Shown here one piece after another: positions 482 to 52,710 of a DNA stretch of 64,000 bases (positions are counted from its first letter, which is position 1; each line of letters starts with the position of its first letter). This stretch comes from a virus. Under the pieces are notes generated by a model. That model worked only from the letters and a program-made list of their open reading frames with translations, made no database searches and was not told the DNA's origin. Both the position numbers and the translations under genes were made by a program. The stretch covers positions 1 to 64,000 of IMG/VR virus record IMGVR_UViG_3300045971_000356; one strand, given 5' to 3'.

Positions 482-1174
482 ATGAAAAAATTGTTAGTTT
501 TGCTTAGTTTATTTTTGGCAACTTCTGCAATAGCAGAGCCAAAAGTGTCAGTCTCACTTGGAAGCACTTTTGCCAATACACAACCTTCAGGTATTTGGTG
601 GCAGCAAGAATACTCAAGTAAGTTTACCCATAATGCTCCCTCATTCACCCTGAGAGTTGATAATAGAATATCAAATGGATGGAGTTATGGAGTGGGTTAT
701 GCTTACGTAGGTAATTTTCATTCAGACTCATTGGCAGTTAGTTCAGATCCTGCTTATGCGAGCGGATCGCCATGGCCACTTTCTCGATGGATTGGGAATC
801 AGAAAGTAGATGGAATATTTTTAGTAGGTCGCAAAACGATTGGAAAATGGTATATTGAAGCAGGTCCCATGCTAACTAAAACTTCATACTCAATGGATGT
901 TCCAGACTGGATCGGATCAAAAGATTGGCCTACTAACCTTGTTCCAGATACAGGTAATACGCGATTTTTACACGTTGGCACACCACGGCAGATGAAGGTA
1001 GAATTAATCGGTGGGGTAGGCTATAATATATCAGATAAATTATCTGTTCAGTTTACAGCATACCCAACTCGTGTATTAAATCCACAGCCAGAGGAGGTTG
1101 GCGAAAGTGCTGACACCGGACCAGGTATCCTTAAAGGTTACTCAGGTAACCTTTCGGTACTGTACACATTTTAG
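482..1174 (+). CDS. outer-membrane beta-barrel protein
   Basis: Signal peptide MKKLLVLLSLFLATSAIA, amphipathic strands (WSYGVGYAYVG, GGVGYNISDKLSVQF) and C-terminal ...LYTF BAM-type signature. Confidence 0.75.
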   Translation: MKKLLVLLSLFLATSAIAEPKVSVSLGSTFANTQPSGIWWQQEYSSKFTHNAPSFTLRVDNRISNGWSYGVGYAYVGNFHSDSLAVSSDPAYASGSPWPLSRWIGNQKVDGIFLVGRKTIGKWYIEAGPMLTKTSYSMDVPDWIGSKDWPTNLVPDTGNTRFLHVGTPRQMKVELIGGVGYNISDKLSVQFTAYPTRVLNPQPEEVGESADTGPGILKGYSGNLSVLYTF

Positions 1175-1266
1175 TCCTGTTAGTTTAGTGGCCCAGAACG
1201 CCATTCGCCACCCTCGGGTGACCGGTTCAAGTGGTAACGTAGGTTCGAATCCTGCACAGGACACCA
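1174..1266 (+). tRNA. tRNA-Glu(TTC)-like gene with ~19-nt insert in the anticodon loop
   Basis: Perfect acceptor GTCCTGT/ACAGGAC-ACCA and canonical T-arm. Anticodon stem GCCAT/GTGGT encloses an extra CACCC-TC-GGGTG hairpin before TTCAA. Confidence 0.6.
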
Positions 1267-7544: not shown

Positions 7545-8237
7545 ATGAGAACGCAACGTAAAATTTTAGTCGTCGACGACGATCCAGTAGTAGGCCGCAG
7601 TTTTGAGCGGGTACTAAAAAGCAAAGGCTATGCAGTTATTAACTGCTCAAACGGCAAAGACGCTTTAACAAAACTACAAAATGAGGAATATGACGCAGTA
7701 TTCACAGACTTAAAAATGTCTGGAATGGATGGACTTGAAGTAGCCACAAAGGTTAAAGCAAGCCAACCATGGATGCCAGTCGTAATCATCACGGGGTATG
7801 CAACACCAGCAGCAGAAACCCAGGCAGCAACGCTAGGGGTGCACACATTCATTCAGAAACCACTAAGCCCTTCGATGATTGAAGAAATGGCTGAAAACGC
7901 GATGAGTGAAAAAAATGCAGTGTTTGAACCAACCACAGCAGTAATTGATGCATTAGTTGCCACACATGAAGTTAAGAAAGAAAACTTTGCTCTTAATTTA
8001 GCATTGTTTTTGTCAGCACCATTCATTGGTTTGCTGTATGCACTTGCATTGCCGCTAGTTGGCTTTGCTATGCTTGCTTACCTTGGTTTCAAGGCAGCAG
8101 TAAAGAGCGAAAAAATACGCTTTTATGGCACTATAATCGCAGCACCATTTATTGGGCTAGTATTTGCAATAGCAATGCCTATTGCAGGATTAGGTACGCT
8201 AGCTTACGTAGGCGGGCAAGCTGCTTTTAAAAAGTAA
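7545..8237 (+). CDS. response-regulator receiver protein with C-terminal membrane helices
   Basis: KILVVDDD...FTDLKMSGMDG...IITGY...QKP followed by duplicated hydrophobic APFIGL segments. Confidence 0.9.
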   Translation: MRTQRKILVVDDDPVVGRSFERVLKSKGYAVINCSNGKDALTKLQNEEYDAVFTDLKMSGMDGLEVATKVKASQPWMPVVIITGYATPAAETQAATLGVHTFIQKPLSPSMIEEMAENAMSEKNAVFEPTTAVIDALVATHEVKKENFALNLALFLSAPFIGLLYALALPLVGFAMLAYLGFKAAVKSEKIRFYGTIIAAPFIGLVFAIAMPIAGLGTLAYVGGQAAFKK

Positions 8238-9975: not shown

Positions 9976-10052
9976 GGATTGTTAGTTTAACGGTTAAAAC
10001 ATCTCCCTTTTAAGGAGTAAGACTCCGGGTTCGAATCCCGGGCGATCCACCA
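9976..10052 (+). tRNA. tRNA-Lys(TTT)
   Basis: CTCC-CTTTTAA-GGAG, canonical T-arm, CCA. Confidence 0.9.
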
Positions 10053-10123
10053 TATTAAAACACATTTTCTGAAACGTGAGAGCCTGTTTGCCGGTGCAGA
10101 GTAGGTCAGTGTGTTTTAATATG
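10051..10123 (+). ncRNA. long-stem cassette between two tRNAs
   Basis: CATATTAAAACAC...GTGTTTTAATATG inverted repeat. Confidence 0.5.
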
Positions 10124-10197
10124 GTGATATAGCATAGACAGATATGCAGGGGTCTCATAAGCCTCACAGGAAGGAGCGTTGCCTTCTATCACCACCA
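10123..10197 (+). tRNA. tRNA-Met(CAT)
   Basis: GGTGATA/TATCACC-ACCA, loop CTCATAA, non-canonical T-loop. Confidence 0.75.
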
Positions 10198-10208
10198 GTA
10201 AATACTTA

Positions 10209-11816
10209 ATGCGATTATGGTTTTTAATCTTTTTAGCACTCACATTGCTACCTGCTTACGCTCAAGACACGAGCCAACCGCAGGTAGTTTTTTCTGCGAT
10301 TAAAGATACTGACCAGCCCATTGAAGTACAGATGGAGACAGCAAGAGAGGCACTTAGGAACAATGACTTTGATACAGCAATAACCATACTGAATACAGTG
10401 CTGCTACTACCTAACAATAAGTTTACACAAGAGGCGCAAGCCCGCATTGGATTTGCGTACGAGAGATCTAAAAAGTACTCTAAAGCAATAGGCGAGTATA
10501 ACGCTTACATTGCCATGTATCCCAACAGCGGCATAGTGGAGTCAATGCGTAGGCGTTTACTGGCGCTTGAGATTTTAACGCCACAGCACGATGTAGCAAA
10601 AGCAATACCCGATGGACCGCGACAAATAAAAGAGCATAAAGTGGAAGCATCGAGCTCTACTTATTACATTGCTTCAGGTACTGACTCAACCTTGATTTCC
10701 AATGTACATGCGAACGGTGTGTTCAAAGATAATGAATACACTACAAAAGTAGTAGTGCGAGAAAATGTACACACTGACATTAAACCTAAAGTTGAATCTA
10801 AATACACGCTCAACACTGCCACTGTTGAAATTGAAAACAGTTATAAAGACTGGGAATTAAAACTTGGACGACAATCTTCTGATTACGGTGTAATGTCTAA
10901 GTTTGATGGTATAGCTGCAACGTATGGGTACGGGCACGACACTGAGTACACCTTAGTGCTCGGACAGCCATTAATGAACAATGCAACATCATCACGTAAA
11001 ATGTTTGGTCTTCACACTCACTTTAACTTAGGTGAGTTTACGTCAGCCACTGCATACTACAACCACCAAACTGCTGACAATTTTGAAGAGCGCTCAGCAT
11101 TGGGCACAGAGTTTAGGTACTTTAAGAACGAACTATCCGTGACAGCAGCAGCAGAGTACGACATAGCATATCAGCAACTAAACTCAGTGACATTTAACGC
11201 TCATAAAGACAACAACTCTAATAGATGGTTTGTGCTATACGATCGCAGAAAGTCTCCTGTGCTGTATGCCGACAAGGCGTTGGCACTGGGGTTGTTTAAC
11301 GGAGCAAACATGCCATATAATTCTATTGCAGAGGCATTAGCAAGGTCTGGTATGACAGCAAGCGAGTTGCGTGATTACATTGTGTCAGAAACAGCAGTGT
11401 CGTCAACATTTGCAATAGGTGGAGCAATAGCAGTAAACACATGGACCTTAGGTGGTGATATACAATCTGCAACAATGACAGGAACTGGTACCGAGCCGCA
11501 GTCATCTAAGATTAACTCAATATCGTTAAACGCATTTAACCCGAATGCTTTTCTAAAGCATTCAGTTAACGCTATTGTATCTTACTCTACGTCAGAAAAC
11601 GGTATATATACATTGACATTGTTAGACAGCACCGATATAGCAAAAATAAGATTAGACACTACTGCTCGTATTACTAACAAACAAAACAAACTATTATCGT
11701 TTAGTACACATCATAAACTGACTAAGGATGCGTTTTTAGAACTTCAACTTATGCTAAGTAAGATACGAGACGAGATAGACAAAACATTTATTTTAGGGTT
11801 TAGATATGAGTTTTAG
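10209..11816 (+). CDS. TPR-domain plus large beta-barrel outer-membrane protein (putative porin of a porin-cytochrome conduit)
   Basis: Signal peptide ending ...PAYA, TPR helices (EAQARIGFAYERSKKYSKAIGEYNAYIAMYP), many amphipathic strands and C-terminal LGFRYEF. Confidence 0.8.
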   Translation: MRLWFLIFLALTLLPAYAQDTSQPQVVFSAIKDTDQPIEVQMETAREALRNNDFDTAITILNTVLLLPNNKFTQEAQARIGFAYERSKKYSKAIGEYNAYIAMYPNSGIVESMRRRLLALEILTPQHDVAKAIPDGPRQIKEHKVEASSSTYYIASGTDSTLISNVHANGVFKDNEYTTKVVVRENVHTDIKPKVESKYTLNTATVEIENSYKDWELKLGRQSSDYGVMSKFDGIAATYGYGHDTEYTLVLGQPLMNNATSSRKMFGLHTHFNLGEFTSATAYYNHQTADNFEERSALGTEFRYFKNELSVTAAAEYDIAYQQLNSVTFNAHKDNNSNRWFVLYDRRKSPVLYADKALALGLFNGANMPYNSIAEALARSGMTASELRDYIVSETAVSSTFAIGGAIAVNTWTLGGDIQSATMTGTGTEPQSSKINSISLNAFNPNAFLKHSVNAIVSYSTSENGIYTLTLLDSTDIAKIRLDTTARITNKQNKLLSFSTHHKLTKDAFLELQLMLSKIRDEIDKTFILGFRYEF

Positions 11817-12318
11817 CAAGTTACTGATTGTAATATTTGTAAGTTGGTATGTTACACCTTCTATAGCAGCAGAATGTACCGCGTACGAAAAATCGCACCC
11901 ATCATTTTTGCTTGACGGAGCACACTTGTCCACGGGTAAGTGCCAAACGTGCGCAAGCTGTCACATCAACAGTATCTTCAACGGCACACCACGCTCATGC
12001 GTAACATGCCACAATGGAGATCCAGCACGTAACACCATTGGGAGACCAGCGTTACACATACCTACACAGCTTATCGAGTGTAATGCCTGCCACAAAACGG
12101 TATCATTTGCTACATCTGTTACTATGAATCACGTTATACTCGGGTCAGTGAAATGTACAACATGCCACTCAACAGCAAGCCCGCGATATCTTGGCAACCA
12201 GCAACGCATGTCGTTAACTCACGATCAGCGAACACCGGTGCCCACAGACTGCTCACAAGTTGGGTGCCACCGCCCCGGCGGTACAAAAGGTGTGCTATAC
12301 AAAAGTTGGGACAACTAA
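11806..12318 (+). CDS. secreted multiheme cytochrome c (4 CxxCH plus 1 CX4CH)
   Basis: Signal peptide; CASCH, CVTCH, CNACH, CTTCH and CSQVGCH. Confidence 0.9.
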   Translation: MSFSKLLIVIFVSWYVTPSIAAECTAYEKSHPSFLLDGAHLSTGKCQTCASCHINSIFNGTPRSCVTCHNGDPARNTIGRPALHIPTQLIECNACHKTVSFATSVTMNHVILGSVKCTTCHSTASPRYLGNQQRMSLTHDQRTPVPTDCSQVGCHRPGGTKGVLYKSWDN

Positions 12319-12408
12319 TCAGACTAAATAACTATGCTTTTAAGTTTTGACTAAGAACGCCTAAATAATTATGACCACTTGGTCATTACACATTAGGACG
12401 TTTATACC

Positions 12409-13137
12409 ATGCTTAAAAAGATATTACTTAGTTTAGCACTTATTGTAGCGGGCACATTGGGAACTGCTACTACAGCATCTGCGGCAGAATGTACCTTATA
12501 TGAGCAATCCCACCCAGCGTTCTTATTGGACGGGGCTCATCTATCAACTGGGCAATGCAACACCTGTGCATCATGTCACAAAGGTGGTGTATTTGTGGGT
12601 ACTCCAAAATCATGTACTGCGTGTCACAACGGTGACCCAGCAAGAACTACAGTAGGTAGGTCAGCATTACACATTCCAACACAGTTAACTGAATGTTCTT
12701 ACTGCCACCGCACAACTGCGTTTACGACCAACGTAAACATGGACCACACGCAAGTAACTCAGCAACGTTGCGACACTTGCCACAATGGATCATACTTGAA
12801 CTACGGTAAAAACTACGGTGGAGCAAAACAAAAAGGTCCATTGCACATTCCAACTACTGCTGATTGTTCATCGTGCCACACTACACAAAGCTGGTTAGTT
12901 AACCACGCAACAATCCATGCTGGCGTGACTACAGGTTGCGTAAACTGCCACAACGGCACTTACGCACCAGGCAAATCATCGTATGCTGCTGGACACCCAG
13001 TAACATCTGATGCTTGCGAAACTTGCCACAGCATTGATAACGCATTCAAGTGCGCCTCTGCTTACGACAAAGTAAAAGAATTCTTTGCGGTGTTGATACA
13101 CAAGGCAAAGATTTATTCCAACCATGCGTTTGCTTAG
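12409..13137 (+). CDS. secreted heptaheme cytochrome c, paralog of the upstream gene
   Basis: Signal peptide; CASCH, CTACH, CSYCH, CDTCH, CSSCH, CVNCH and CETCH. Confidence 0.92.
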   Translation: MLKKILLSLALIVAGTLGTATTASAAECTLYEQSHPAFLLDGAHLSTGQCNTCASCHKGGVFVGTPKSCTACHNGDPARTTVGRSALHIPTQLTECSYCHRTTAFTTNVNMDHTQVTQQRCDTCHNGSYLNYGKNYGGAKQKGPLHIPTTADCSSCHTTQSWLVNHATIHAGVTTGCVNCHNGTYAPGKSSYAAGHPVTSDACETCHSIDNAFKCASAYDKVKEFFAVLIHKAKIYSNHAFA

Positions 13138-13561
13138 TTTCAAAGACCTATATATTCTATCATCAGATTGGCATGTAAGTTATTGGACAGGTGTAGTTTG
13201 CGGCATAATAATGCTGCTATTGTTTACGTACCCGATTCGCAAATATTTCTTTGCGATTCGTGGTATCGGTAAAATGTCAACATGGTTTAACGCACACGTG
13301 GTGTTAGGCACTGCGATGACATTTCTGTTGATTTACCATACTAACTTTTTCCATACTCACTCGTTAAACGGTACCTTTGCCTTTTACAGCATTGTGGCAG
13401 TAGTAGCAAGCGGATTTGTGGGAAGGTATATTTTGCGTAGAGTACATAATCACAAATTTTGGGCTGACTTGTTCAAACATTGGCATGTAGCGCATGTACC
13501 CGTGATTTATATGTCGCTGGTTCTTGTGTTGATTCACGTTTATGCTATCCACGTATATTAA
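13124..13561 (+). CDS. four-helix inner-membrane His-rich protein (cytochrome b / ferric-reductase-like)
   Basis: Four hydrophobic segments with WFNAHVVLG, YHTNF, HWHVAHVP and LIHVYAIH. Confidence 0.7.
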   Translation: MRLLSFKDLYILSSDWHVSYWTGVVCGIIMLLLFTYPIRKYFFAIRGIGKMSTWFNAHVVLGTAMTFLLIYHTNFFHTHSLNGTFAFYSIVAVVASGFVGRYILRRVHNHKFWADLFKHWHVAHVPVIYMSLVLVLIHVYAIHVY

Positions 13562-13564
13562 CGC

Positions 13565-13593
13565 TTGACTTTGGGCTGATTCTGCGCTATAAT
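13565..13593 (+). promoter_or_regulatory. sigma70 promoter P1
   Basis: TTGACT-17 nt-TATAAT. Confidence 0.85.
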
Positions 13594-13650
13594 AAGCACT
13601 TAGACGCAAAGAAAACAATGTTTTTAGGCAATAAAAAGCAGAAAAACTAG

Positions 13651-13679
13651 TTGACTAGCGCAGTAAATAGTGTTATAAT
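13651..13679 (+). promoter_or_regulatory. sigma70 promoter P2
   Basis: TTGACT-17 nt-TATAAT. Confidence 0.85.
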
Positions 13680-13716
13680 AAACACTTAACGCAGTAAATG
13701 ATCGAGTTAGCTGCTA

Positions 13717-13731
13717 GCATTCATTAACAAT
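13717..13731 (+). promoter_or_regulatory. boxA-like antitermination site
   Basis: GCATTCATTAACAAT resembles rrn boxA (TGCTCTTTAACA) and lies just downstream of the tandem promoters. Confidence 0.5.
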
Positions 13732-13772
13732 ATAAGTAGACAGATTCCTTACGCTACAAGCGGGTGTAAGGA

Positions 13773-14832
13773 GTCATTTTGAAGTATTTTAGTTTGAACG
13801 TAAGTACATCCGAGGTGATCGAGGTTGTCCACTACCAGTATTGCTAAAGTATTTCAAAATGATTATCCCATGACAATAGCGCAACGATAGGGTACGCTTG
13901 CGATAGAACGACAATAGCAGCACGATATTATGGGATGTCATTTTGAAGTATCGTAGGTGATCCGAACCGTAGGCGACAATGCCAGACGAAGGTGATCTGG
14001 ACGGTATTTCAAAATGAGCTTTATTGTAAGCCAGTGTGGTACGCTGGTTAGCCGGATTGTGCGACAAGCAATAAAGAATCATTTTTAAGGGTACTCGCAG
14101 GTAATGGCAAGTTGGGAGGCCATCCAGATAAACCGTGGCCACGGTCTGGGTCTGTAGTCTTAGGTTCGAATCCTTTGTATCCTTCAAAATGATTTTTGTG
14201 AAAGTAAGGGGCGGTACCGTTGTGTGCCGAAAGACGGAGTCACTTCAGTTGTAAGACCGTGTAAAATCTTCCATTGCTCAGAAATCGCAAATCATTTTAG
14301 AGTGCACCAATGCGCCGTACACGCAGATACAGTGGAGTGTAGCCCGACGTTTGATATGTTGGGTCTGGCAGGTTCAAATCCTGCGAAGTGTACTCTAAAA
14401 TGATTATGTCAGTTGTTAAGTAGGTCATAGAATAGGGCAATCCAGTTTAGCGACCAGAGGACACTATTCAAACGGGACAGGTCGGGGCTCGGAATCTCGG
14501 ATGCTAACAACAAATCTTCATAAAGGGTTCTGCAGAACCTAGGTGTGGTCACAGCCTTTACTAAGGGCTTTCCGGTTCGATTCCGGGTGAGGATGACATG
14601 TCATTTTAAAGTATATCCACTACATTGGGTGATGCCAAATGGAAGATTAGGGAGTATCGTCCCGTTGGAATACTTTAAAATGATTTTATAGTTGAAGGCA
14701 CTGCGCGATTTGAGAAACACATCAGCTTGGTTGCTCTTGCACGATGTGAAAAGTCGGAATTTGTTCTAAGGGGCGTTCAACCTCTATACTGGGATGAAGG
14801 TAAAGTGTTTTGAACAGTGCCTTCAACTATAA
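13773..14832 (+). ncRNA. array of long-stem RNA cassettes with a shared terminal inverted repeat
   Basis: RTCATTTTNRAG...CTYNAAAATGA pairs at 13773-13863, 13937-14017, 14078-14193, 14291-14404 and 14600-14684, plus a related stem at 14686-14832. The spacers are also hairpins. Confidence 0.75.
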
Positions 14833-18386: not shown

Positions 18387-19733
18387 ATGATCCCGTCACC
18401 AGATATTTTTTGCTCAAGCCCATGGCTGCATCTTAGAATTCGAATTTCAGGGCAGCTTCAGTCTTGTCGTTGGATGAATTGGCAGCTCGGTACCCCGCTT
18501 AAAGATGAGTATATTCAAAACACATCAATGATTGAATATTTTAACTCTGTTGACATGTGTGCATTGCGTGGGGGGTTGTTATCAAATACCTCTCACCCAA
18601 TGTGTGCCAAGTGCTATTACCAAGATTCATTTAATAAAGTTAGTGGTAGGGTCAGACAGTTATTTCGAAGTAAGCTAGATAATCTTGACACATTCGCTGA
18701 TGACTTTGTGTCTAGCCCGCATATCGAGCTCTTTAACTACAGTTTAGAAAATAACTTCAAGGCTAGCAAATACCCAATTGATTTGCAAATTGATCTAGAA
18801 AATACTTGCAACGGTGCATGTATTATGTGTAACCCAGTCTTTAGTTCAAAGCTAGGGCATGATTTTAAAAAACTGCACGTAATAAATCCAAAAATATTCC
18901 CAATATCTGCACCACAAAAAAATTGGGCGGCTGATCCAGTGACGCTTGCTAAGTTTGTTGATGAAATAAAGCAAATGCCCGAAATTGAATACATTCATTT
19001 TTTGGGTGGGGAAACATTATATGTTGAAAGTTTTTATACTATTTGTGAGGCACTGATTAAGTCTGGTGCTGCGAAAAATATTATTATGGGCACTACTACT
19101 AACTGTTCTATATATTCAGATAGATTGGCCAATATTATATCGTCATTTAAAAGTGTGCATTTAGGGTTAAGCATTGAGTCAATGCACGAGGTTAATGATT
19201 ATATTCGATATCCAAGTAAAATAGGGATAGTGTCTGAAAACATTAAGAATTTTTTGGCACTAAGAGAGAATAACCACGAGTTGTATATTCAGTTTAGGAT
19301 TACTCCTAATATTTTTACTGTTTTTTATTTAGATGAATTGTTACAGTATGCATTAGATAATGGGATTAGTAGTGAAAGTTGTGATATTCTTTGCGAGCCG
19401 CCATATCTTTGTATTGAACTGATTCCAAATGATATTAAGATGCAAGCTATTAGCAAGTTAAAGAATTTCATGATACGTAACAAGTTAATGTACGTTGGCA
19501 AAGTAACAAACTCGCGTGAAAAATCGTTATGCAGGGAAGTGATGGCAGATGCAGTTACTAGTTATATAAACTTCTTGGAGACTATGCAACCTCCAACTAA
19601 TTGTGAAGATCTTAGATTTGGGTTGGTGGAATTTTTGCATGCGTTTGAAACTATACGTAAAAATAGTATCTTAGATTATGTACCTGAATTCACTGATTTC
19701 TTAATGCAATACGGGTATTCTCGACAGAAATGA
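18387..19733 (+). CDS. radical SAM protein (twitch/SPASM type)
   Basis: CNGACIMC, FLGGET and an N-terminal FCSSPW domain. Confidence 0.85.
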   Translation: MIPSPDIFCSSPWLHLRIRISGQLQSCRWMNWQLGTPLKDEYIQNTSMIEYFNSVDMCALRGGLLSNTSHPMCAKCYYQDSFNKVSGRVRQLFRSKLDNLDTFADDFVSSPHIELFNYSLENNFKASKYPIDLQIDLENTCNGACIMCNPVFSSKLGHDFKKLHVINPKIFPISAPQKNWAADPVTLAKFVDEIKQMPEIEYIHFLGGETLYVESFYTICEALIKSGAAKNIIMGTTTNCSIYSDRLANIISSFKSVHLGLSIESMHEVNDYIRYPSKIGIVSENIKNFLALRENNHELYIQFRITPNIFTVFYLDELLQYALDNGISSESCDILCEPPYLCIELIPNDIKMQAISKLKNFMIRNKLMYVGKVTNSREKSLCREVMADAVTSYINFLETMQPPTNCEDLRFGLVEFLHAFETIRKNSILDYVPEFTDFLMQYGYSRQK

Positions 19734-20851
19734 ACGAGTCACTTCGGTTTTTTTGCAGGTTACCGTGGGAGGGACTTGACATATCACCGCAGGGTGAATT
19801 TAAGCCGTGTTGTAAATATCGTGGAACTGTTGCCACTGGTTTTACAGAATATATTGCTAGCCCTGAGTTGAAGCAGCTAAGAGAATTATTTTTGGAAGGT
19901 AAAAAACCTGACAAATGCGTTAGATGCTGGAATGACGAAGAAGCTGGGATAAAAAGCAAACGTCAGATTGAGTTTGACAATCATTTAGTAGAACAACCGG
20001 TTAACAAGGACTTTAAAATTGTAAGCTTATCTTTTGGTAATACCTGCAATTTAGCTTGCCGATCTTGCTCAAGTTACGCAAGTTCTAAATGGCTCACTGA
20101 GGCAAAAAAATTGCATGCACTTGGAGTTGAGACGAAGCAGTTTCCACACACTGCATTTTATAAACAGCAAGAATTTACGGAAAATATAAAGCAAATATCT
20201 AAACATGCGTCGCTTATTGAAATTGTTGGTGGCGAACCATTTTATACTGGGCTTGCTGAACATAAAGAATTTCTTCGATACTTAACTGAAAATTCACCGG
20301 CGGAAAAAAGCTTGCATTACGTTACTAATGTGACTGCATTTCCTGACGATGAGTTCTGGGATTTATGGAAGAATTTTAAAAATGTTGATATACAATTAAG
20401 CATAGATGGGGTTGGCAAACAATTTGAATATCTTAGGTGGCCTGCTAAATGGGGTAATGCTTATAGCAACATAAAAAAATATCAGCAGAAAAAAGAAAAA
20501 ATCACAAATTTGCAACTTAGTATAAGCCACACTGTAAGTTCAATGAACGTGTATTATCTTCCTGAATTTTTACAATGGTGTAAACAAGAAGAGTTGCCAG
20601 TGCCTTATTGCGGTAAAGTGCATACTCCCGAGTATTACGACATTGCTACCTTACCTCAACATATTAAATGTGCTATTTTTAAAAAATTTGGAGATAACAC
20701 AGAGCTCGCACCAATGGTGGCAGCAATGCAAAAAAACGAAGAGAGTATGTTTGCTGAGTTTACTTTAATGCTTGATACATTAGATAAGATGAGAAATCAG
20801 TCGTTTGATGAGGTGTTTCCTGAGTATGCGCAAATAATAAAAACGGCATAA
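19730..20851 (+). CDS. radical SAM protein (twitch/SPASM type)
   Basis: CNLACRSC, VGGEP. Confidence 0.85.
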   Translation: MNESLRFFCRLPWEGLDISPQGEFKPCCKYRGTVATGFTEYIASPELKQLRELFLEGKKPDKCVRCWNDEEAGIKSKRQIEFDNHLVEQPVNKDFKIVSLSFGNTCNLACRSCSSYASSKWLTEAKKLHALGVETKQFPHTAFYKQQEFTENIKQISKHASLIEIVGGEPFYTGLAEHKEFLRYLTENSPAEKSLHYVTNVTAFPDDEFWDLWKNFKNVDIQLSIDGVGKQFEYLRWPAKWGNAYSNIKKYQQKKEKITNLQLSISHTVSSMNVYYLPEFLQWCKQEELPVPYCGKVHTPEYYDIATLPQHIKCAIFKKFGDNTELAPMVAAMQKNEESMFAEFTLMLDTLDKMRNQSFDEVFPEYAQIIKTA

Positions 20852-20858
20852 ATATCTT

Positions 20859-21224
20859 ATGTTTATGCAAATCAACGAAGAAGAGCACAAAGCTATCTAT
20901 GATATCATTGATAAGCTTGAAGAGGTTATTGCTCATCCACCACTGATGATAGTGCGTGAATTGCTGACTACTATAGAGCAGCACTTCGCTCATGAAGAAG
21001 CATGGATGGCAAGGCATAACTATCCCGACTATCCTGGGCATAAAAAAGCGCACGAAGCATATCTTTCATTGCTCACAAAATTTTACAACGACGTAAAAAA
21101 CGACCCATCTATTTTGCCCGGAAGACTTGAAATGATCAAACACGCATTAGACAGCCACAAAGATACCGAGATGGTGGCATTCGCTGTTCATGTCAGTGAC
21201 GTCCCACCAGCAGCAGAAATTTAG
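20859..21224 (+). CDS. bacteriohemerythrin
   Basis: EEH...HFAHEE...YPDYPGHKKAH...H...D. Confidence 0.85.
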   Translation: MFMQINEEEHKAIYDIIDKLEEVIAHPPLMIVRELLTTIEQHFAHEEAWMARHNYPDYPGHKKAHEAYLSLLTKFYNDVKNDPSILPGRLEMIKHALDSHKDTEMVAFAVHVSDVPPAAEI

Positions 21225-51630: not shown

Positions 51631-51638
51631 TATAAATA
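51631..51638 (+). promoter_or_regulatory. T4-type late promoter
   Basis: Exact TATAAATA 30 nt before the cytochrome ATG. Confidence 0.75.
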
Positions 51639-51668
51639 AAAGTACATACTTTTAATATAGGAGGAAAT

Positions 51669-52310
51669 ATGTTTTTGAAGAAGTTATTTGCGGCCTTATT
51701 CGCTGTAAGTGTAGTTAGTGCTGGCGCCGGCACCATTGTAGGATCAGCACATGATTTTAGTGGTCAAGCATGGTCTCCGAATGCGCAAACTTGCGTGGCT
51801 TGTCACGCACCTCACGCAACAGCAGTTCTGGCAGATGCTCCACTTTGGAACCACGCATCATCAGTAGCAACATACACTGTTTACGCATCATCATCAATGA
51901 ATGCAACGGTGGGGCAACCTGGCTCAACCTCCAAACTTTGCTTGTCATGCCATGATGGTACGGTGGCAGTTAATTCTTTTGGCGGAGTGACTGGTACTAC
52001 AATGCTGACTGGCGGTTCAAATCTCAGCACGGTATTAACTAATGACCATCCGATCGGTTTTACTTATGATGCTGCGTTAGTAACAGCAGACGGTGCGTTG
52101 GCTCCAATTACAAATACAGTTACCTTAGGTTCAGGTACTAAAGTTAAATCTGGACCCACTGTAACTATAGCATCTGCTATGTTATATGCGGGTAAAGTTG
52201 AATGCGCATCATGCCATGATGTACATAATACATTTACCGCTGCAACTGGTAAATTGGTAAAAGTGTCAATGGCATCAAGTGCATTGTGTACCACTTGCCA
52301 CACTAAATAA
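51669..52310 (+). CDS. OmcE-like secreted tetraheme cytochrome c
   Basis: Signal peptide; HDFS, CVACHAPH, PLWNH, CLSCHDG, LTNDHPIGF, ECASCHDVH and LCTTCHTK. Confidence 0.85.
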   Translation: MFLKKLFAALFAVSVVSAGAGTIVGSAHDFSGQAWSPNAQTCVACHAPHATAVLADAPLWNHASSVATYTVYASSSMNATVGQPGSTSKLCLSCHDGTVAVNSFGGVTGTTMLTGGSNLSTVLTNDHPIGFTYDAALVTADGALAPITNTVTLGSGTKVKSGPTVTIASAMLYAGKVECASCHDVHNTFTAATGKLVKVSMASSALCTTCHTK

Positions 52311-52325
52311 ACATCAAAACCGCAG

Positions 52326-52354
52326 AAAACTGGCACTTTCGAGTGCCAGTTTTC
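52326..52354 (+). terminator. intrinsic terminator
   Basis: AAAACTGGCAC-TTTCGA-GTGCCAGTTTT. Confidence 0.85.
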
Positions 52355-52416
52355 ATTTGTAATGCTATAAAAGTAGCGATGATATATGATAAATAACTTT
52401 TTAAGGAAATTAACGG

Positions 52417-52710
52417 ATGAATAGAATTTTAGCGGCTTTGCTTATTGCTCTTGTAGTAATACCAGTGATGGCGAAAACAAACAAAAACGATAGTGCATAC
52501 ACTGAAAAGTATTCGTTTGAAGAAAAGATAAAAGATCAATACAATAACGGCAAAAATGATATAAATTTTGACAAAAATGAGTATGCAGATTATAGCAGCA
52601 GCAATGATCATTATACTCCGACAAGTCCAGTGCCAGAACCGACATCTTGGATGATGATGCTTGCCGGCGGAATAATAATTAACCGCCTTCGCAAAAAGAT
52701 GCATAAATAA
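52417..52710 (+). CDS. small PEP-CTERM surface protein
   Basis: Signal peptide; C-terminal VPEPTSW, hydrophobic stretch, RLRKK. Confidence 0.85.
   Translation: MNRILAALLIALVVIPVMAKTNKNDSAYTEKYSFEEKIKDQYNNGKNDINFDKNEYADYSSSNDHYTPTSPVPEPTSWMMMLAGGIIINRLRKKMHK

What the first reader, a model, noticed from the sequence alone, without database searches (positions are those of the whole stretch)
10209..13561. Phage-encoded trans-envelope electron conduit: porin, two multiheme cytochromes and an inner-membrane cytochrome b-like protein
Seen: four adjacent, partly overlapping genes inside the phage tRNA island. They encode a TPR plus large beta-barrel ending in F, secreted cytochromes with 4+1 and 7 heme-binding motifs (paralogs sharing AECT.YE.SHP.FLLDGAHLSTG.C.TCASCH), and a four-helix His-rich membrane protein. 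Known: this composition matches porin-cytochrome complexes for extracellular electron transfer (Mtr/Pcc logic, and the PCC3-type clusters of betaproteobacterial Fe oxidizers, which include an inner-membrane partner). Inference: the phage installs a compact quinone-pool-to-surface wire during infection, an auxiliary metabolic module I do not know from phages. No heme-maturation genes are in the window, so host Ccm/Res would be needed.
Basis: partly seen in the sequence, partly recalled or inferred. Interest (0 to 1): 0.92.

Follow-up and report, generated by a model that had tools for sequence, protein, structure and literature searches.

The report
Phage miniature porin-cytochrome electron conduit
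A large bacteriophage carries a shrunken four-gene copy of a bacterial "PCC3" system, which is thought to move electrons across the cell envelope; related big phages keep it under selection, so these viruses probably rewire how infected cells exchange electrons with their surroundings.

Summary
Four co-oriented genes at 10209-13561 encode a TPR plus 22-strand outer-membrane barrel, a 5-heme (4 CXXCH + CX4CH) cytochrome, a 7-heme cytochrome and a 145-aa four-helix membrane protein.

All four are homologs of parts of the PCC3 porin-cytochrome cluster (He et al. 2017) as found in Methylophilaceae. The barrel matches the PCC3 porin. Both cytochromes match the N-terminal part of the giant extracellular cytochrome. 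The membrane protein keeps both WX3HX13H motifs and the SGXXG motif of the PCC3 inner-membrane protein.

This is a cut-down version: 12 hemes instead of about 60-95, a half-size membrane protein, and no 21-27-heme periplasmic cytochrome.

The record is a 166-kb phage fragment (CheckV 47%). The barrel-cytochrome module recurs in at least 18 viral contigs, including a complete 369-kb genome with terminal repeats. The phage barrels form one clade among Methylophilaceae porins, and dN/dS is 0.04-0.13.

Function is inferred, because PCC3 itself is untested. The set is too short to bridge the periplasm alone, so host parts are needed.

I found no paper describing a phage porin-cytochrome module. This scan had already reported the same kind of module on two other phage genomes (e1-5322710, e1-5322727). 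The same phage also encodes an OmcE-family nanowire cytochrome.

The parts
10209..11816 (+). Outer-membrane porin: signal peptide, TPR-like periplasmic domain (about residues 38-123), 22-strand beta-barrel (141-534) with a conserved helical insert (354-393, DRRKSPVLY region) and a C-terminal GFRYEF. An alternative TTG start lies at 10179.
   Evidence: AF2 pLDDT 82.5; best fold matches are 22-strand TonB-dependent receptors (Z 17-20) and BamD for the TPR part (Z 13.3). Homolog of Methylophilaceae PCC3 porins: 30% identity, E 1e-44 to 7e-51; 45 of 361 family genomes have a match.
11806..12318 (+). cytA: secreted 5-heme c-type cytochrome (4 CXXCH plus a C-terminal CX4CH). Its start overlaps the porin stop by 11 nt, which suggests translational coupling.
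   Evidence: The alignment of 22 family members keeps all five motifs; the last one varies between CX2CH and CX4CH. The best cellular match is the N-terminus of the PCC3 extracellular giant cytochromes (E about 1e-14). Giant homologs also carry a C-terminal CX3CH. The porin-cytA overlap recurs in the phage loci and in the MAG locus L005.
12409..13137 (+). cytB: secreted 7-heme c-type cytochrome, paralog of cytA, with seven conserved extra His residues that could give bis-His ligation.
   Evidence: Pfam Cytochrome_C7 9e-12 and Paired_CXXCH_1 1e-8. All 7 CXXCH plus H44, H88, H113, H146 and H196 are invariant in 41 sequences. It aligns collinearly with the N-terminus of the PCC3 extracellular cytochromes (residues 2-223 against 4-218, E 4e-30). 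Distant solved relatives are GSU1996, MtrC and MtrA.
13124..13561 (+). Mini inner-membrane protein: a four-helix bundle with W54xxxH58x13H72, S96GxxG100 and W120xxxH124x13H138, probably binding two b-type hemes.
   Evidence: Motif scan. Alignment with cellular PCC3 inner-membrane proteins of 274-326 aa: the four His, SGxxG and W120 are invariant, while TM1 and the loop of about 110 aa between TM4 and TM5 are absent. 37-38% identity, E 1e-17 to 2e-18, to proteins encoded beside 21-27-heme cytochromes. AF2 pLDDT 81.5, four long helices.
51669..52310 (+). Possibly associated, not adjacent: an OmcE-family secreted tetraheme cytochrome (cytochrome-nanowire family). TATAAATA lies at 51631-51638.
   Evidence: Full-length match to PDB 7TFS chain A, E 4.4e-26. 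7TFS is the OmcE nanowire. Promoter-like motif.

Best explanation
This is a phage-carried, miniaturised derivative of the bacterial PCC3 porin-cytochrome gene cluster. It was probably captured once from a Methylophilaceae-like host and has been kept as an auxiliary metabolic module. In the infected cell the four proteins would be exported by the host Sec system. The two cytochromes would receive heme from the host cytochrome c maturation system, and the barrel would be inserted by the host BAM machinery. The barrel, together with the translationally coupled 5-heme cytochrome, would form an electron path through the outer membrane. The 7-heme paralog would act on the periplasmic or outer side of that path. 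The 4-helix, probably di-heme-b, membrane protein would be the inner-membrane end. The set lacks the periplasm-spanning 21-27-heme cytochrome, so it most likely plugs into host periplasmic carriers, such as the host's own PCC3 cytochrome. The effect would be to keep or redirect electron exchange with extracellular iron, humic substances or other partners while the phage replicates. The direction of electron flow is not known. Shown here: gene content, homology, motifs, phage context, conservation and purifying selection. Inferred: heme loading, assembly, electron transfer and benefit to the phage.
For: 1. Homology to all matching PCC3 parts. Canonical Methylophilaceae clusters encode an inner-membrane protein of 274-308 aa with two WX3HX13H and SGXXG, a 27-heme cytochrome, a 34-68-heme cytochrome and a 730-795-aa porin. 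They are hit by the phage membrane protein (37%, E 1e-17), by cytA and cytB (33-37%, E 1e-21 to 1e-24, on the extracellular cytochrome) and by the barrel (30%, E 1e-44 to 7e-51).
2. The membrane-protein motifs sit at the positions expected from the published definition.
3. Heme sites. All 12 motifs, and the distal His of cytB, are conserved across the families.
4. Barrel. The model has 22 strands with pLDDT 82.5, ends in an aromatic residue (F) and has a signal peptide.
5. Phage context. The contig encodes a tail fibre, DnaB, primase, RIIA, ligase, NAMPT and 22 tRNAs. It is an IMG/VR record, linear, CheckV 47%. The module GC of 42.4% is close to the phage's 41.4%.
6. Recurrence. The module occurs in at least 18 viral contigs, flanked by homologs of other genes of this phage. 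One of them is a 369-kb genome with terminal repeats and CheckV 100%.
7. Origin. In a quick tree the phage barrels form one clade (SH-aLRT 100) placed among the Methylophilaceae porins.
8. Selection. dN/dS is 0.13 (barrel), 0.04 (cytA) and 0.07 (cytB) at dS 0.65-0.76.
9. Complex prediction for barrel domain + cytA + 4 hemes gave weak support only. Median score 0.49 (runs 0.56, 0.04, 0.49); best of 3 controls 0.00. The mark was reached by 58 of 80 solved complexes and 2 of 110 mismatched pairs. At 0.60 or under it was reached by only 7 of the 80 solved complexes and by both mismatches that passed. The runs agree in at least 0% of contacts and the partner pLDDT is at least 53.
10. The same phage encodes an OmcE-family cytochrome.
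Against: PCC3 has never been tested biochemically in any organism, so the function is inherited from a hypothesis. No ortholog of the periplasmic 21-27-heme cytochrome is present in the 166 kb; only weak repeat-level hits were seen, E 1e-5 to 1e-7. By the published scale of about 100 A for decaheme MtrA, 5 + 7 hemes cannot bridge the periplasm. The membrane protein is absent from a complete (369 kb) and a 95%-complete related phage, so it is not essential to the module. Its fold matches are non-specific for helical bundles. The barrel resembles generic 22-24-strand barrels more than MtrB (Z 14.7, rank 27). No expression data could be obtained. No promoter was found directly upstream. The host is not identified directly.
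Confidence: 0.72

Rival explanations
1. Receptor replacement or masking. The host's surface-exposed PCC3 porin or giant cytochrome is the phage receptor, and the phage makes truncated versions that displace it. That would block superinfection or stop new virions being trapped on lysed cells. Electron transfer would be incidental or only partly retained.
For: Both phage cytochromes derive from the surface-exposed (extracellular) cytochrome and not from the periplasmic one. The repeats that would extend from the cell are deleted. The N-terminal domain of the barrel is swapped between phage lineages (TPR, AMIN, others). Most phages lack the inner-membrane part (90). A Methylophilaceae MAG carries the mini trio in place of a porin and extracellular cytochrome beside its inner-membrane protein and 27-heme genes.
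Against: All heme-binding motifs and distal His are invariant and under strong purifying selection. A mere decoy would not need that. This phage and three other lineages also carry the inner-membrane redox protein. No receptor-binding data exist.
Confidence: 0.1
2. A periplasmic or outer-membrane redox module with a purpose other than respiration-type extracellular electron transfer. Examples are reductive iron acquisition through the barrel, detoxification of metals or reactive oxygen, or an electron sink that balances redox state during phage DNA synthesis.
For: The set is too short to be a full envelope wire. Neighbouring genes include a hemerythrin, two radical SAM enzymes and a membrane-anchored receiver protein. 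The receiver protein is conserved beside the module in L001.
Against: The homologous cellular clusters have the architecture of an envelope-spanning conduit. This phage also encodes an OmcE-family nanowire cytochrome, which points to extracellular electron transfer.
Confidence: 0.13
3. Artefact: host DNA joined to phage DNA by mis-assembly, or a bacterial fragment wrongly classed as viral.
For: The record is an incomplete linear metagenomic contig (CheckV 47%). No capsid or terminase gene was found among the 30 ORFs scanned against PHROGs. Read mapping could not be done.
Against: The same gene order, with phage genes on both sides, is seen in independent assemblies from other samples (L001, L016, L017). 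It also occurs in a complete genome with terminal repeats. There is no compositional break. tRNAs and homing endonucleases flank the module.
Confidence: 0.03

Closest known systems
PCC3 porin-cytochrome c gene clusters (He et al. 2017, PMC5566968; Hoover et al. 2023, PMC9900912), here as found in Methylophilaceae
   Same: Homologous porin, homologous extracellular-type multiheme cytochrome and homologous inner-membrane protein with two WX3HX13H and SGXXG. The same adjacency: porin, cytochrome(s), inner-membrane protein. Wire-like ratio of about 30 residues per heme.
   Different: 5 and 7 hemes instead of 10-85 (extracellular) and 21-27 (periplasmic). No ortholog of the periplasmic cytochrome. 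The inner-membrane protein is 145 aa with 4 helices instead of about 300 aa with 5. The barrel protein is 535 aa instead of 730-800. A phage-clade-specific Cys pair lies near the N-terminus of both cytochromes. The module is carried by a phage.
MtrCAB / MtoAB / PioAB of Shewanella, Sideroxydans and Rhodopseudomonas (structure 6R2Q)
   Same: The same logic: a large outer-membrane barrel gene beside multiheme cytochrome genes. The cytochrome profile distantly matches MtrC (E 5e-8) and MtrA (E 6e-6).
   Different: No MtrB_PioB family hit for the barrel. 22 predicted strands. The fold match to MtrB (Z 14.7) is weaker than to unrelated TonB-dependent receptors. There is no decaheme and no lipoprotein cytochrome.
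Geobacter c7-type polymer cytochrome GSU1996 (3OV0) and the OmcE nanowire (7TFS)
   Same: cytB's best solved relative is GSU1996 (E 6e-9). A separate gene of this phage (51669-52310) is a full-length OmcE homolog (E 4e-26).
   Different: The Geobacter proteins are chromosomal and are not linked to a PCC3-type barrel. Whether the phage OmcE-like protein forms filaments is unknown.
Other mobile-element or viral multiheme cytochromes: the NapC/NirT cytochrome of amoC-phages (10.64898/2026.06.18.733297) and the multiheme cytochromes of Borgs and Methanoperedens elements (PMC13444090)
   Same: Precedent that large phages and extrachromosomal elements carry host-like multiheme cytochromes as metabolic cargo.
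   Different: Those are single inner-membrane or archaeal cytochromes. None of the papers found describes a porin plus cytochromes plus inner-membrane partner in a phage.

Membership tests
PCC3 porin-cytochrome cluster (He et al. 2017) | Outer-membrane beta-barrel porin gene next to multiheme cytochrome genes, homologous to PCC3 porins | tested here: met
   22-strand model. 30% identity, E 1e-44 to 7e-51, to the porins of Methylophilaceae clusters that have the full PCC3 architecture. Shared DRRKSPVLY insert.
PCC3 porin-cytochrome cluster (He et al. 2017) | Extracellular multiheme cytochrome with a very large heme count (median 34; 10-35 in Gallionellaceae) | tested here: not met
   cytA and cytB are homologs of this component (collinear N-terminus, E up to 4e-30). 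They have only 5 and 7 heme motifs.
PCC3 porin-cytochrome cluster (He et al. 2017) | Periplasmic multiheme cytochrome with 21-27 hemes | tested here: not met
   tblastn of two Methylophilaceae 27-heme proteins against the 166-kb contig gives only weak repeat-level hits on cytA and cytB (E 3e-7 or worse). The contig is about 47% of the genome, so absence from the whole phage is not proven.
PCC3 porin-cytochrome cluster (He et al. 2017) | Conserved inner-membrane protein with two WX3HX13H motifs and SGXXG | tested here: met
   Motifs at residues 54, 96 and 120. They are invariant in the alignment with cellular PCC3 inner-membrane proteins.
PCC3 porin-cytochrome cluster (He et al. 2017) | Inner-membrane protein of about 300 aa with five transmembrane helices | tested here: not met
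   145 aa with four long helices. TM1 and the TM4-TM5 loop are missing.
PCC3 porin-cytochrome cluster (He et al. 2017) | Electron transfer across the envelope | not testable with these tools
   Not shown for any PCC3 cluster.
MtrAB / MtoAB / PioAB | MtrB/PioB-family barrel and decaheme MtrA-type cytochrome | tested here: not met
   No MtrB_PioB Pfam hit at E up to 1. The OmcA/MtrC decaheme model scores 21 bits against a cut-off of 209. The heme counts are 5 and 7.
Cyc2 fused cytochrome-porin | Heme-binding motif at the N-terminus of the barrel protein | tested here: not met
   No CXXCH in the barrel protein.
Bacteriophage genome (module is viral cargo) | Phage genes on both sides, and recurrence in independent and complete viral genomes | tested here: met
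   No capsid or terminase gene was seen among the 30 ORFs scanned in this 47% fragment.

The most novel reading that the evidence does not exclude
A clade of jumbo phages of freshwater methylotrophs encodes its own minimal extracellular-electron-transfer pathway. In this phage that would be the full chain: a di-heme-b inner-membrane protein, a 12-heme outer-membrane conduit and an OmcE-type extracellular nanowire subunit. The phage would use it to change the respiration of infected cells, for example by letting them dump electrons on Fe(III) or humic substances, or take up electrons, in oxygen-poor lake water. That would be the first virus-encoded electron conduit. It would also be the smallest natural PCC3 system, which makes the untested PCC3 family experimentally tractable.
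Probability: 0.35. Interest if true: 0.9.

Novelty: new variant of a known kind. Interest (0 to 1): 0.8.

Why it matters
Extracellular electron transfer is treated as a cellular trait. If phages carry and maintain an outer-membrane electron conduit, viral infection could alter iron, humic and methane-linked carbon cycling in lakes. Phages would also be vectors that spread such conduits: a Methylophilaceae chromosome carries a phage-type mini module between insertion sequences. In practical terms, PCC3 has been known from genomes since 2017 but has never been tested, partly because its cytochromes have 20-85 hemes. A natural version with 5 + 7 hemes, a 535-aa porin and a 145-aa membrane protein is small enough for heterologous expression and structure determination.

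Tried and rejected
- blastn of 10000-14000 against 50,697 phage records found no match.
- The search for related loci with the 41-sequence alignment failed because no block was conserved enough. It worked with 16 sequences.
No read mapping, habitat or expression data could be obtained, and read laying was not used.
- Foldseek on the barrel returned only generic barrels.
- Foldseek on the membrane protein gave nothing at E up to 0.001. VIA matches to the di-heme proteins CybB, Dcytb, cytochrome b561 and FdnI (Z 9-11) do not stand above unrelated four-helix bundles.
- The OmcE-like protein was not found with this query in five related phage records or in three Methylophilaceae genomes.
- The membrane-anchored ferredoxin/flavoprotein-like neighbour of cellular PCC3 has no homolog in the 166 kb.
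- Cyc2 and Mtr membership were rejected (see membership test).
- A lipoprotein reading of the cytochromes was rejected by eye: a Glu separates the conserved Cys from the signal-peptide end, so there is no lipobox.
- dN/dS for window against L001 was unusable for three genes because dS was saturated.
- The third homologous-protein search, the search of protein representatives and the protein atlas were not used.
Full report
**What is there**

The window is the first 64 kb of a single 166,302-bp contig with 41% GC. The tools identify it as an IMG/VR virus record, linear, with a CheckV completeness of 47%. That implies a jumbo phage of roughly 350 kb.

Four co-oriented ORFs occupy 10209-13561:
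- A 535-aa protein with a Sec-type signal peptide that ends GFRYEF.
- A 170-aa secreted protein with four CXXCH and one CX4CH motif (cytA). Its start overlaps the previous stop by 11 nt.
- After a 90-nt gap, a 242-aa secreted protein with seven CXXCH motifs (cytB).
- Overlapping cytB by 14 nt, a 145-aa hydrophobic, His-rich protein.

cytA and cytB are paralogs (52% identity, E 1e-53). In the whole contig only these two and one further ORF (51669-52310) carry four or more CXXCH motifs. The module sits in a tRNA-rich stretch, with 22 tRNAs in the window, and shows no compositional break.

**The barrel**

Pfam and NCBIfam see only weak TPR/BamD-like signal at residues 43-108. An AlphaFold2 model built on 24 homologs (pLDDT 82.5) gives TPR-like helices at 38-123. 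These are followed by a 22-strand barrel (141-534), interrupted by a helical insert at 354-393. That insert contains the most conserved sequence block of the family, DRRKSPVLY.

Fold searches return generic large barrels. TonB-dependent receptors score Z 17-20 and the FimD usher also matches. MtrB (6R2Q chain B) scores only Z 14.7 at rank 27. The TPR part matches BamD at Z 13.3. So this is a large outer-membrane barrel, but not an Mtr-family one.

**The cytochromes**

cytB hits Cytochrome_C7 (9e-12) and Paired_CXXCH_1. Among 41 homologs, all seven CXXCH motifs are invariant. Five further His (H44, H88, H113, H146, H196) are invariant and two more (H35, H170) are nearly so. That is enough for bis-His ligation of every heme.

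In the cytA family (22 sequences) all five sites are kept. The last site alternates between CX2CH and CX4CH, which supports the reading that the odd motif binds heme. Both proteins have about 30 residues per heme.

The closest solved relatives by profile are GSU1996 (E 6e-9), MtrC (5e-8) and MtrA (6e-6).

**The membrane protein**

It carries W54xxxH58x13H72, S96GxxG100 and W120xxxH124x13H138. This is the motif set that He et al. (2017) used to define the conserved inner-membrane protein of PCC3 and PCC4. They proposed that it binds two b hemes, as ferric-reductase-type domains do.

Aligned with cellular homologs of 274-326 aa, the four His, SGxxG and W120 are invariant. The phage protein lacks TM1 and a loop of about 110 residues between TM4 and TM5. 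Its model is a four-helix bundle (pLDDT 81.5). Structural matches to di-heme b proteins exist, but they do not rise above unrelated helical bundles.

**Cellular counterparts**

A scan of species-representative genomes with the cytochrome family found loci in Proteobacteria MAGs. These encode, in a row: an inner-membrane protein with the same motifs; a 21-heme cytochrome (18 in the alphaproteobacterial locus); a 55-65-heme cytochrome (17 in that locus); and a SPOR/TPR barrel in L007 and L008. L006 ends before any barrel gene.

In the family of the best-matching MAG (Methylophilaceae), 45 of 361 species genomes have a homolog of the barrel. Three of those loci were read in full. They show an inner-membrane protein (274-308 aa) in L053 and L054, a 27-heme cytochrome (22 motifs in L055, whose fetched stretch ends inside that region and shows no inner-membrane gene), an extracellular-type cytochrome (68, 34, or 26 + 14 hemes) and a porin (730-795 aa). 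This is the published PCC3 architecture, including the 21/24/27-heme class of periplasmic cytochrome.

Every phage protein matches its counterpart:
- Membrane protein: 37% identity, E about 1e-17.
- Barrel: 30% identity, E 1e-44 to 7e-51.
- Both cytochromes match the extracellular giant cytochrome (E 1e-21 to 1e-24), collinear from the N-terminus.
- Both cytochromes match the periplasmic cytochrome only weakly (E 1e-5 to 1e-7).

The giant cellular proteins also end with a CX3CH motif, as cytA ends with CX4CH. The phage set is therefore a contracted PCC3. It has two short derivatives of the extracellular cytochrome, no periplasmic cytochrome, and a half-size membrane protein.

**Is it really phage cargo?**

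The contig encodes a collagen-like tail fibre, DnaB-type helicase, primase, RIIA, DNA ligase, NAMPT/NadM-type NAD salvage genes and homing endonucleases. No capsid or terminase gene was found among the 30 ORFs scanned against PHROGs. That does not argue against a phage, because about half of the genome is missing from the contig.

The barrel plus cytochrome module occurs in at least 18 IMG/VR contigs of 11-369 kb, and in further metagenome contigs. Those contigs share other genes with this phage on both sides of the module, in several different arrangements. One relative is a 369-kb genome with direct terminal repeats and CheckV 100%. Others are 92-95% complete.

L001, from another sample, repeats the local order: receiver protein, barrel, cytA, cytB, membrane protein. 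A chimeric junction is thus very unlikely.

**Evolution**

In a quick maximum-likelihood tree of 34 barrels, all phage sequences form one clade (SH-aLRT 100). That clade is sister (support 84) to two Methylophilaceae porins, inside the Methylophilaceae porin diversity. Caveats apply: several branches are long, the outgroup is not clean, and other betaproteobacterial families were not sampled.

The least saturated phage pair gives dN/dS of 0.13 (barrel), 0.04 (cytA) and 0.07 (cytB).

The mini membrane protein is present in this phage, in L001 and in two phages of about 327 kb. It is absent from the complete 369-kb genome and from a 95%-complete genome. The core of the phage module is therefore the barrel plus small cytochromes.

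One Methylophilaceae MAG carries a phage-type trio (7-heme cytochrome, 573-aa TPR barrel, 5-heme cytochrome; 52-54% identity on the cytochromes). It lies on a 2-Mb contig between IS200-like and DDE transposase genes, and its GC is lower than that of its flanks. This barrel falls inside the phage clade. The same MAG has an inner-membrane protein and a 27-heme cytochrome at another locus with no porin beside them. This suggests two things: exchange between these phages and Methylophilaceae, and that the mini outer-membrane part can work with host inner parts.

**Mechanism**

The most likely reading is an outer-membrane electron conduit made in the infected cell by host export, heme-attachment and barrel-assembly systems. 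No PF01578-type maturation gene is on the fragment.

The conserved overlap of the barrel and cytA genes suggests that these two proteins assemble together. A complex prediction of the barrel domain with cytA and four hemes gave weak support only. The median score was 0.49 (runs 0.56, 0.04, 0.49) and the best of three controls was 0.00. The mark was reached by 58 of 80 solved complexes and by 2 of 110 mismatched pairs. At 0.60 or under, it was reached by only 7 of those 80 and by both mismatches that passed. Agreement of contacts between runs was at least 0%, and the partner pLDDT was at least 53.

Decaheme MtrA measures about 100 A. The 21-27-heme cytochrome is the part thought to span the periplasm. 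The 5 + 7 hemes here therefore cannot connect both membranes by themselves. Either cytB shuttles, or host carriers fill the gap. The direction of electron flow and the natural partner (iron, humic matter, another cell) cannot be decided from sequence.

**Rival readings**

- Receptor replacement. This is suggested because both cytochromes derive from the surface-exposed component and the distal repeats are gone.
- Another redox role, such as iron uptake or redox balancing.
- Assembly artefact.

The invariant heme sites under strong purifying selection argue against a pure decoy. The replicated phage context argues against an artefact.

**Wider context in this phage**

ORF 51669-52310 is a full-length homolog of the OmcE nanowire cytochrome (7TFS, E 4e-26). 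It is preceded by TATAAATA and followed by a small PEP-CTERM protein. It was not found in five related phage records.

Near the module are a receiver-domain protein with membrane segments, two radical SAM proteins and a hemerythrin.

**Novelty**

Five full-text searches found no description of a phage porin-cytochrome module. The nearest precedents are a NapC/NirT cytochrome in amoC-phages and multiheme cytochromes on archaeal Borg-like elements.

Within this scan, the same kind of module was already reported and followed up on two other phage genomes (e1-5322710 and e1-5322727). My analysis reached the same family assignment independently and agrees with them.

Particular to this window:
- All four genes are contiguous.
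- It has the smallest barrel proteins among the phage loci compared here (535 aa).
- An OmcE-family gene lies on the same phage.

Noticed in passing
window 51631-52710: A secreted tetraheme cytochrome (51669-52310) is a full-length homolog of the Geobacter OmcE nanowire subunit (7TFS, E 4e-26). TATAAATA lies at 51631. It is followed by a 97-aa protein with a PEP-CTERM motif (52417-52710). It was not found in five related phage records or in three Methylophilaceae genomes with this query.
   Followed up: partly
window 7545-8237: A response-regulator receiver domain is fused to a hydrophobic C-terminal half. It is 75% identical in L001, where it also lies just upstream of the module, so it may regulate or sense for it.
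   Followed up: partly
window 18387-21224: Two adjacent radical SAM proteins (448 and 373 aa) are followed by a 121-aa hemerythrin-domain protein. This is redox or oxygen-sensing cargo close to the conduit.
   Followed up: no
window 13565-14832: Two near-consensus sigma-70-type promoters (TTGACT-17-TATAAT at 13565 and 13651) start directly after the module. They are followed by about 1.2 kb without a convincing ORF.
   Followed up: no
L005 (Methylophilaceae MAG JABFRO01, 2.0-Mb contig) and L040: The chromosome carries a phage-type mini trio (7-heme cytochrome, 573-aa TPR barrel, 5-heme cytochrome) between IS200-like and DDE transposase genes. Its GC is 44%, against 47-51% in the flanks. The MAG's PCC3 inner-membrane protein and 27-heme cytochrome lie at another locus without a porin.
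   Followed up: partly
L053 734-2029, L054 649-1956, L040 6753-8063 (minus strand): In Methylophilaceae PCC3 loci, a 431-436-aa protein is encoded divergently next to the inner-membrane protein. It has an N-terminal membrane segment and ferredoxin-type Cys motifs. It has no homolog in the phage fragment.
   Followed up: partly
window 11872-11946 and 12487-12561; alignments A4 and A6: Both phage cytochromes, and all phage-clade relatives, have an extra conserved Cys pair (AEC...GKC) before the first heme motif. The pair is absent from the cellular giant homologs and may form a clade-specific disulfide.
   Followed up: no
L003, L021, L022, L027 and others: The periplasmic N-terminal domain of the phage barrel protein differs between lineages: TPR here, AMIN in the 273-kb phage, and an unrelated extension of about 200 aa in others. 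The barrel itself stays homologous. Heme counts of the small cytochrome also vary (5 or 7), and one complete phage has only one cytochrome.
   Followed up: partly
window 1174-1266: ARAGORN calls a 93-nt tRNA-Gly with anticodon ACC at position 37. That is unusually long and carries an unusual anticodon.
   Followed up: no
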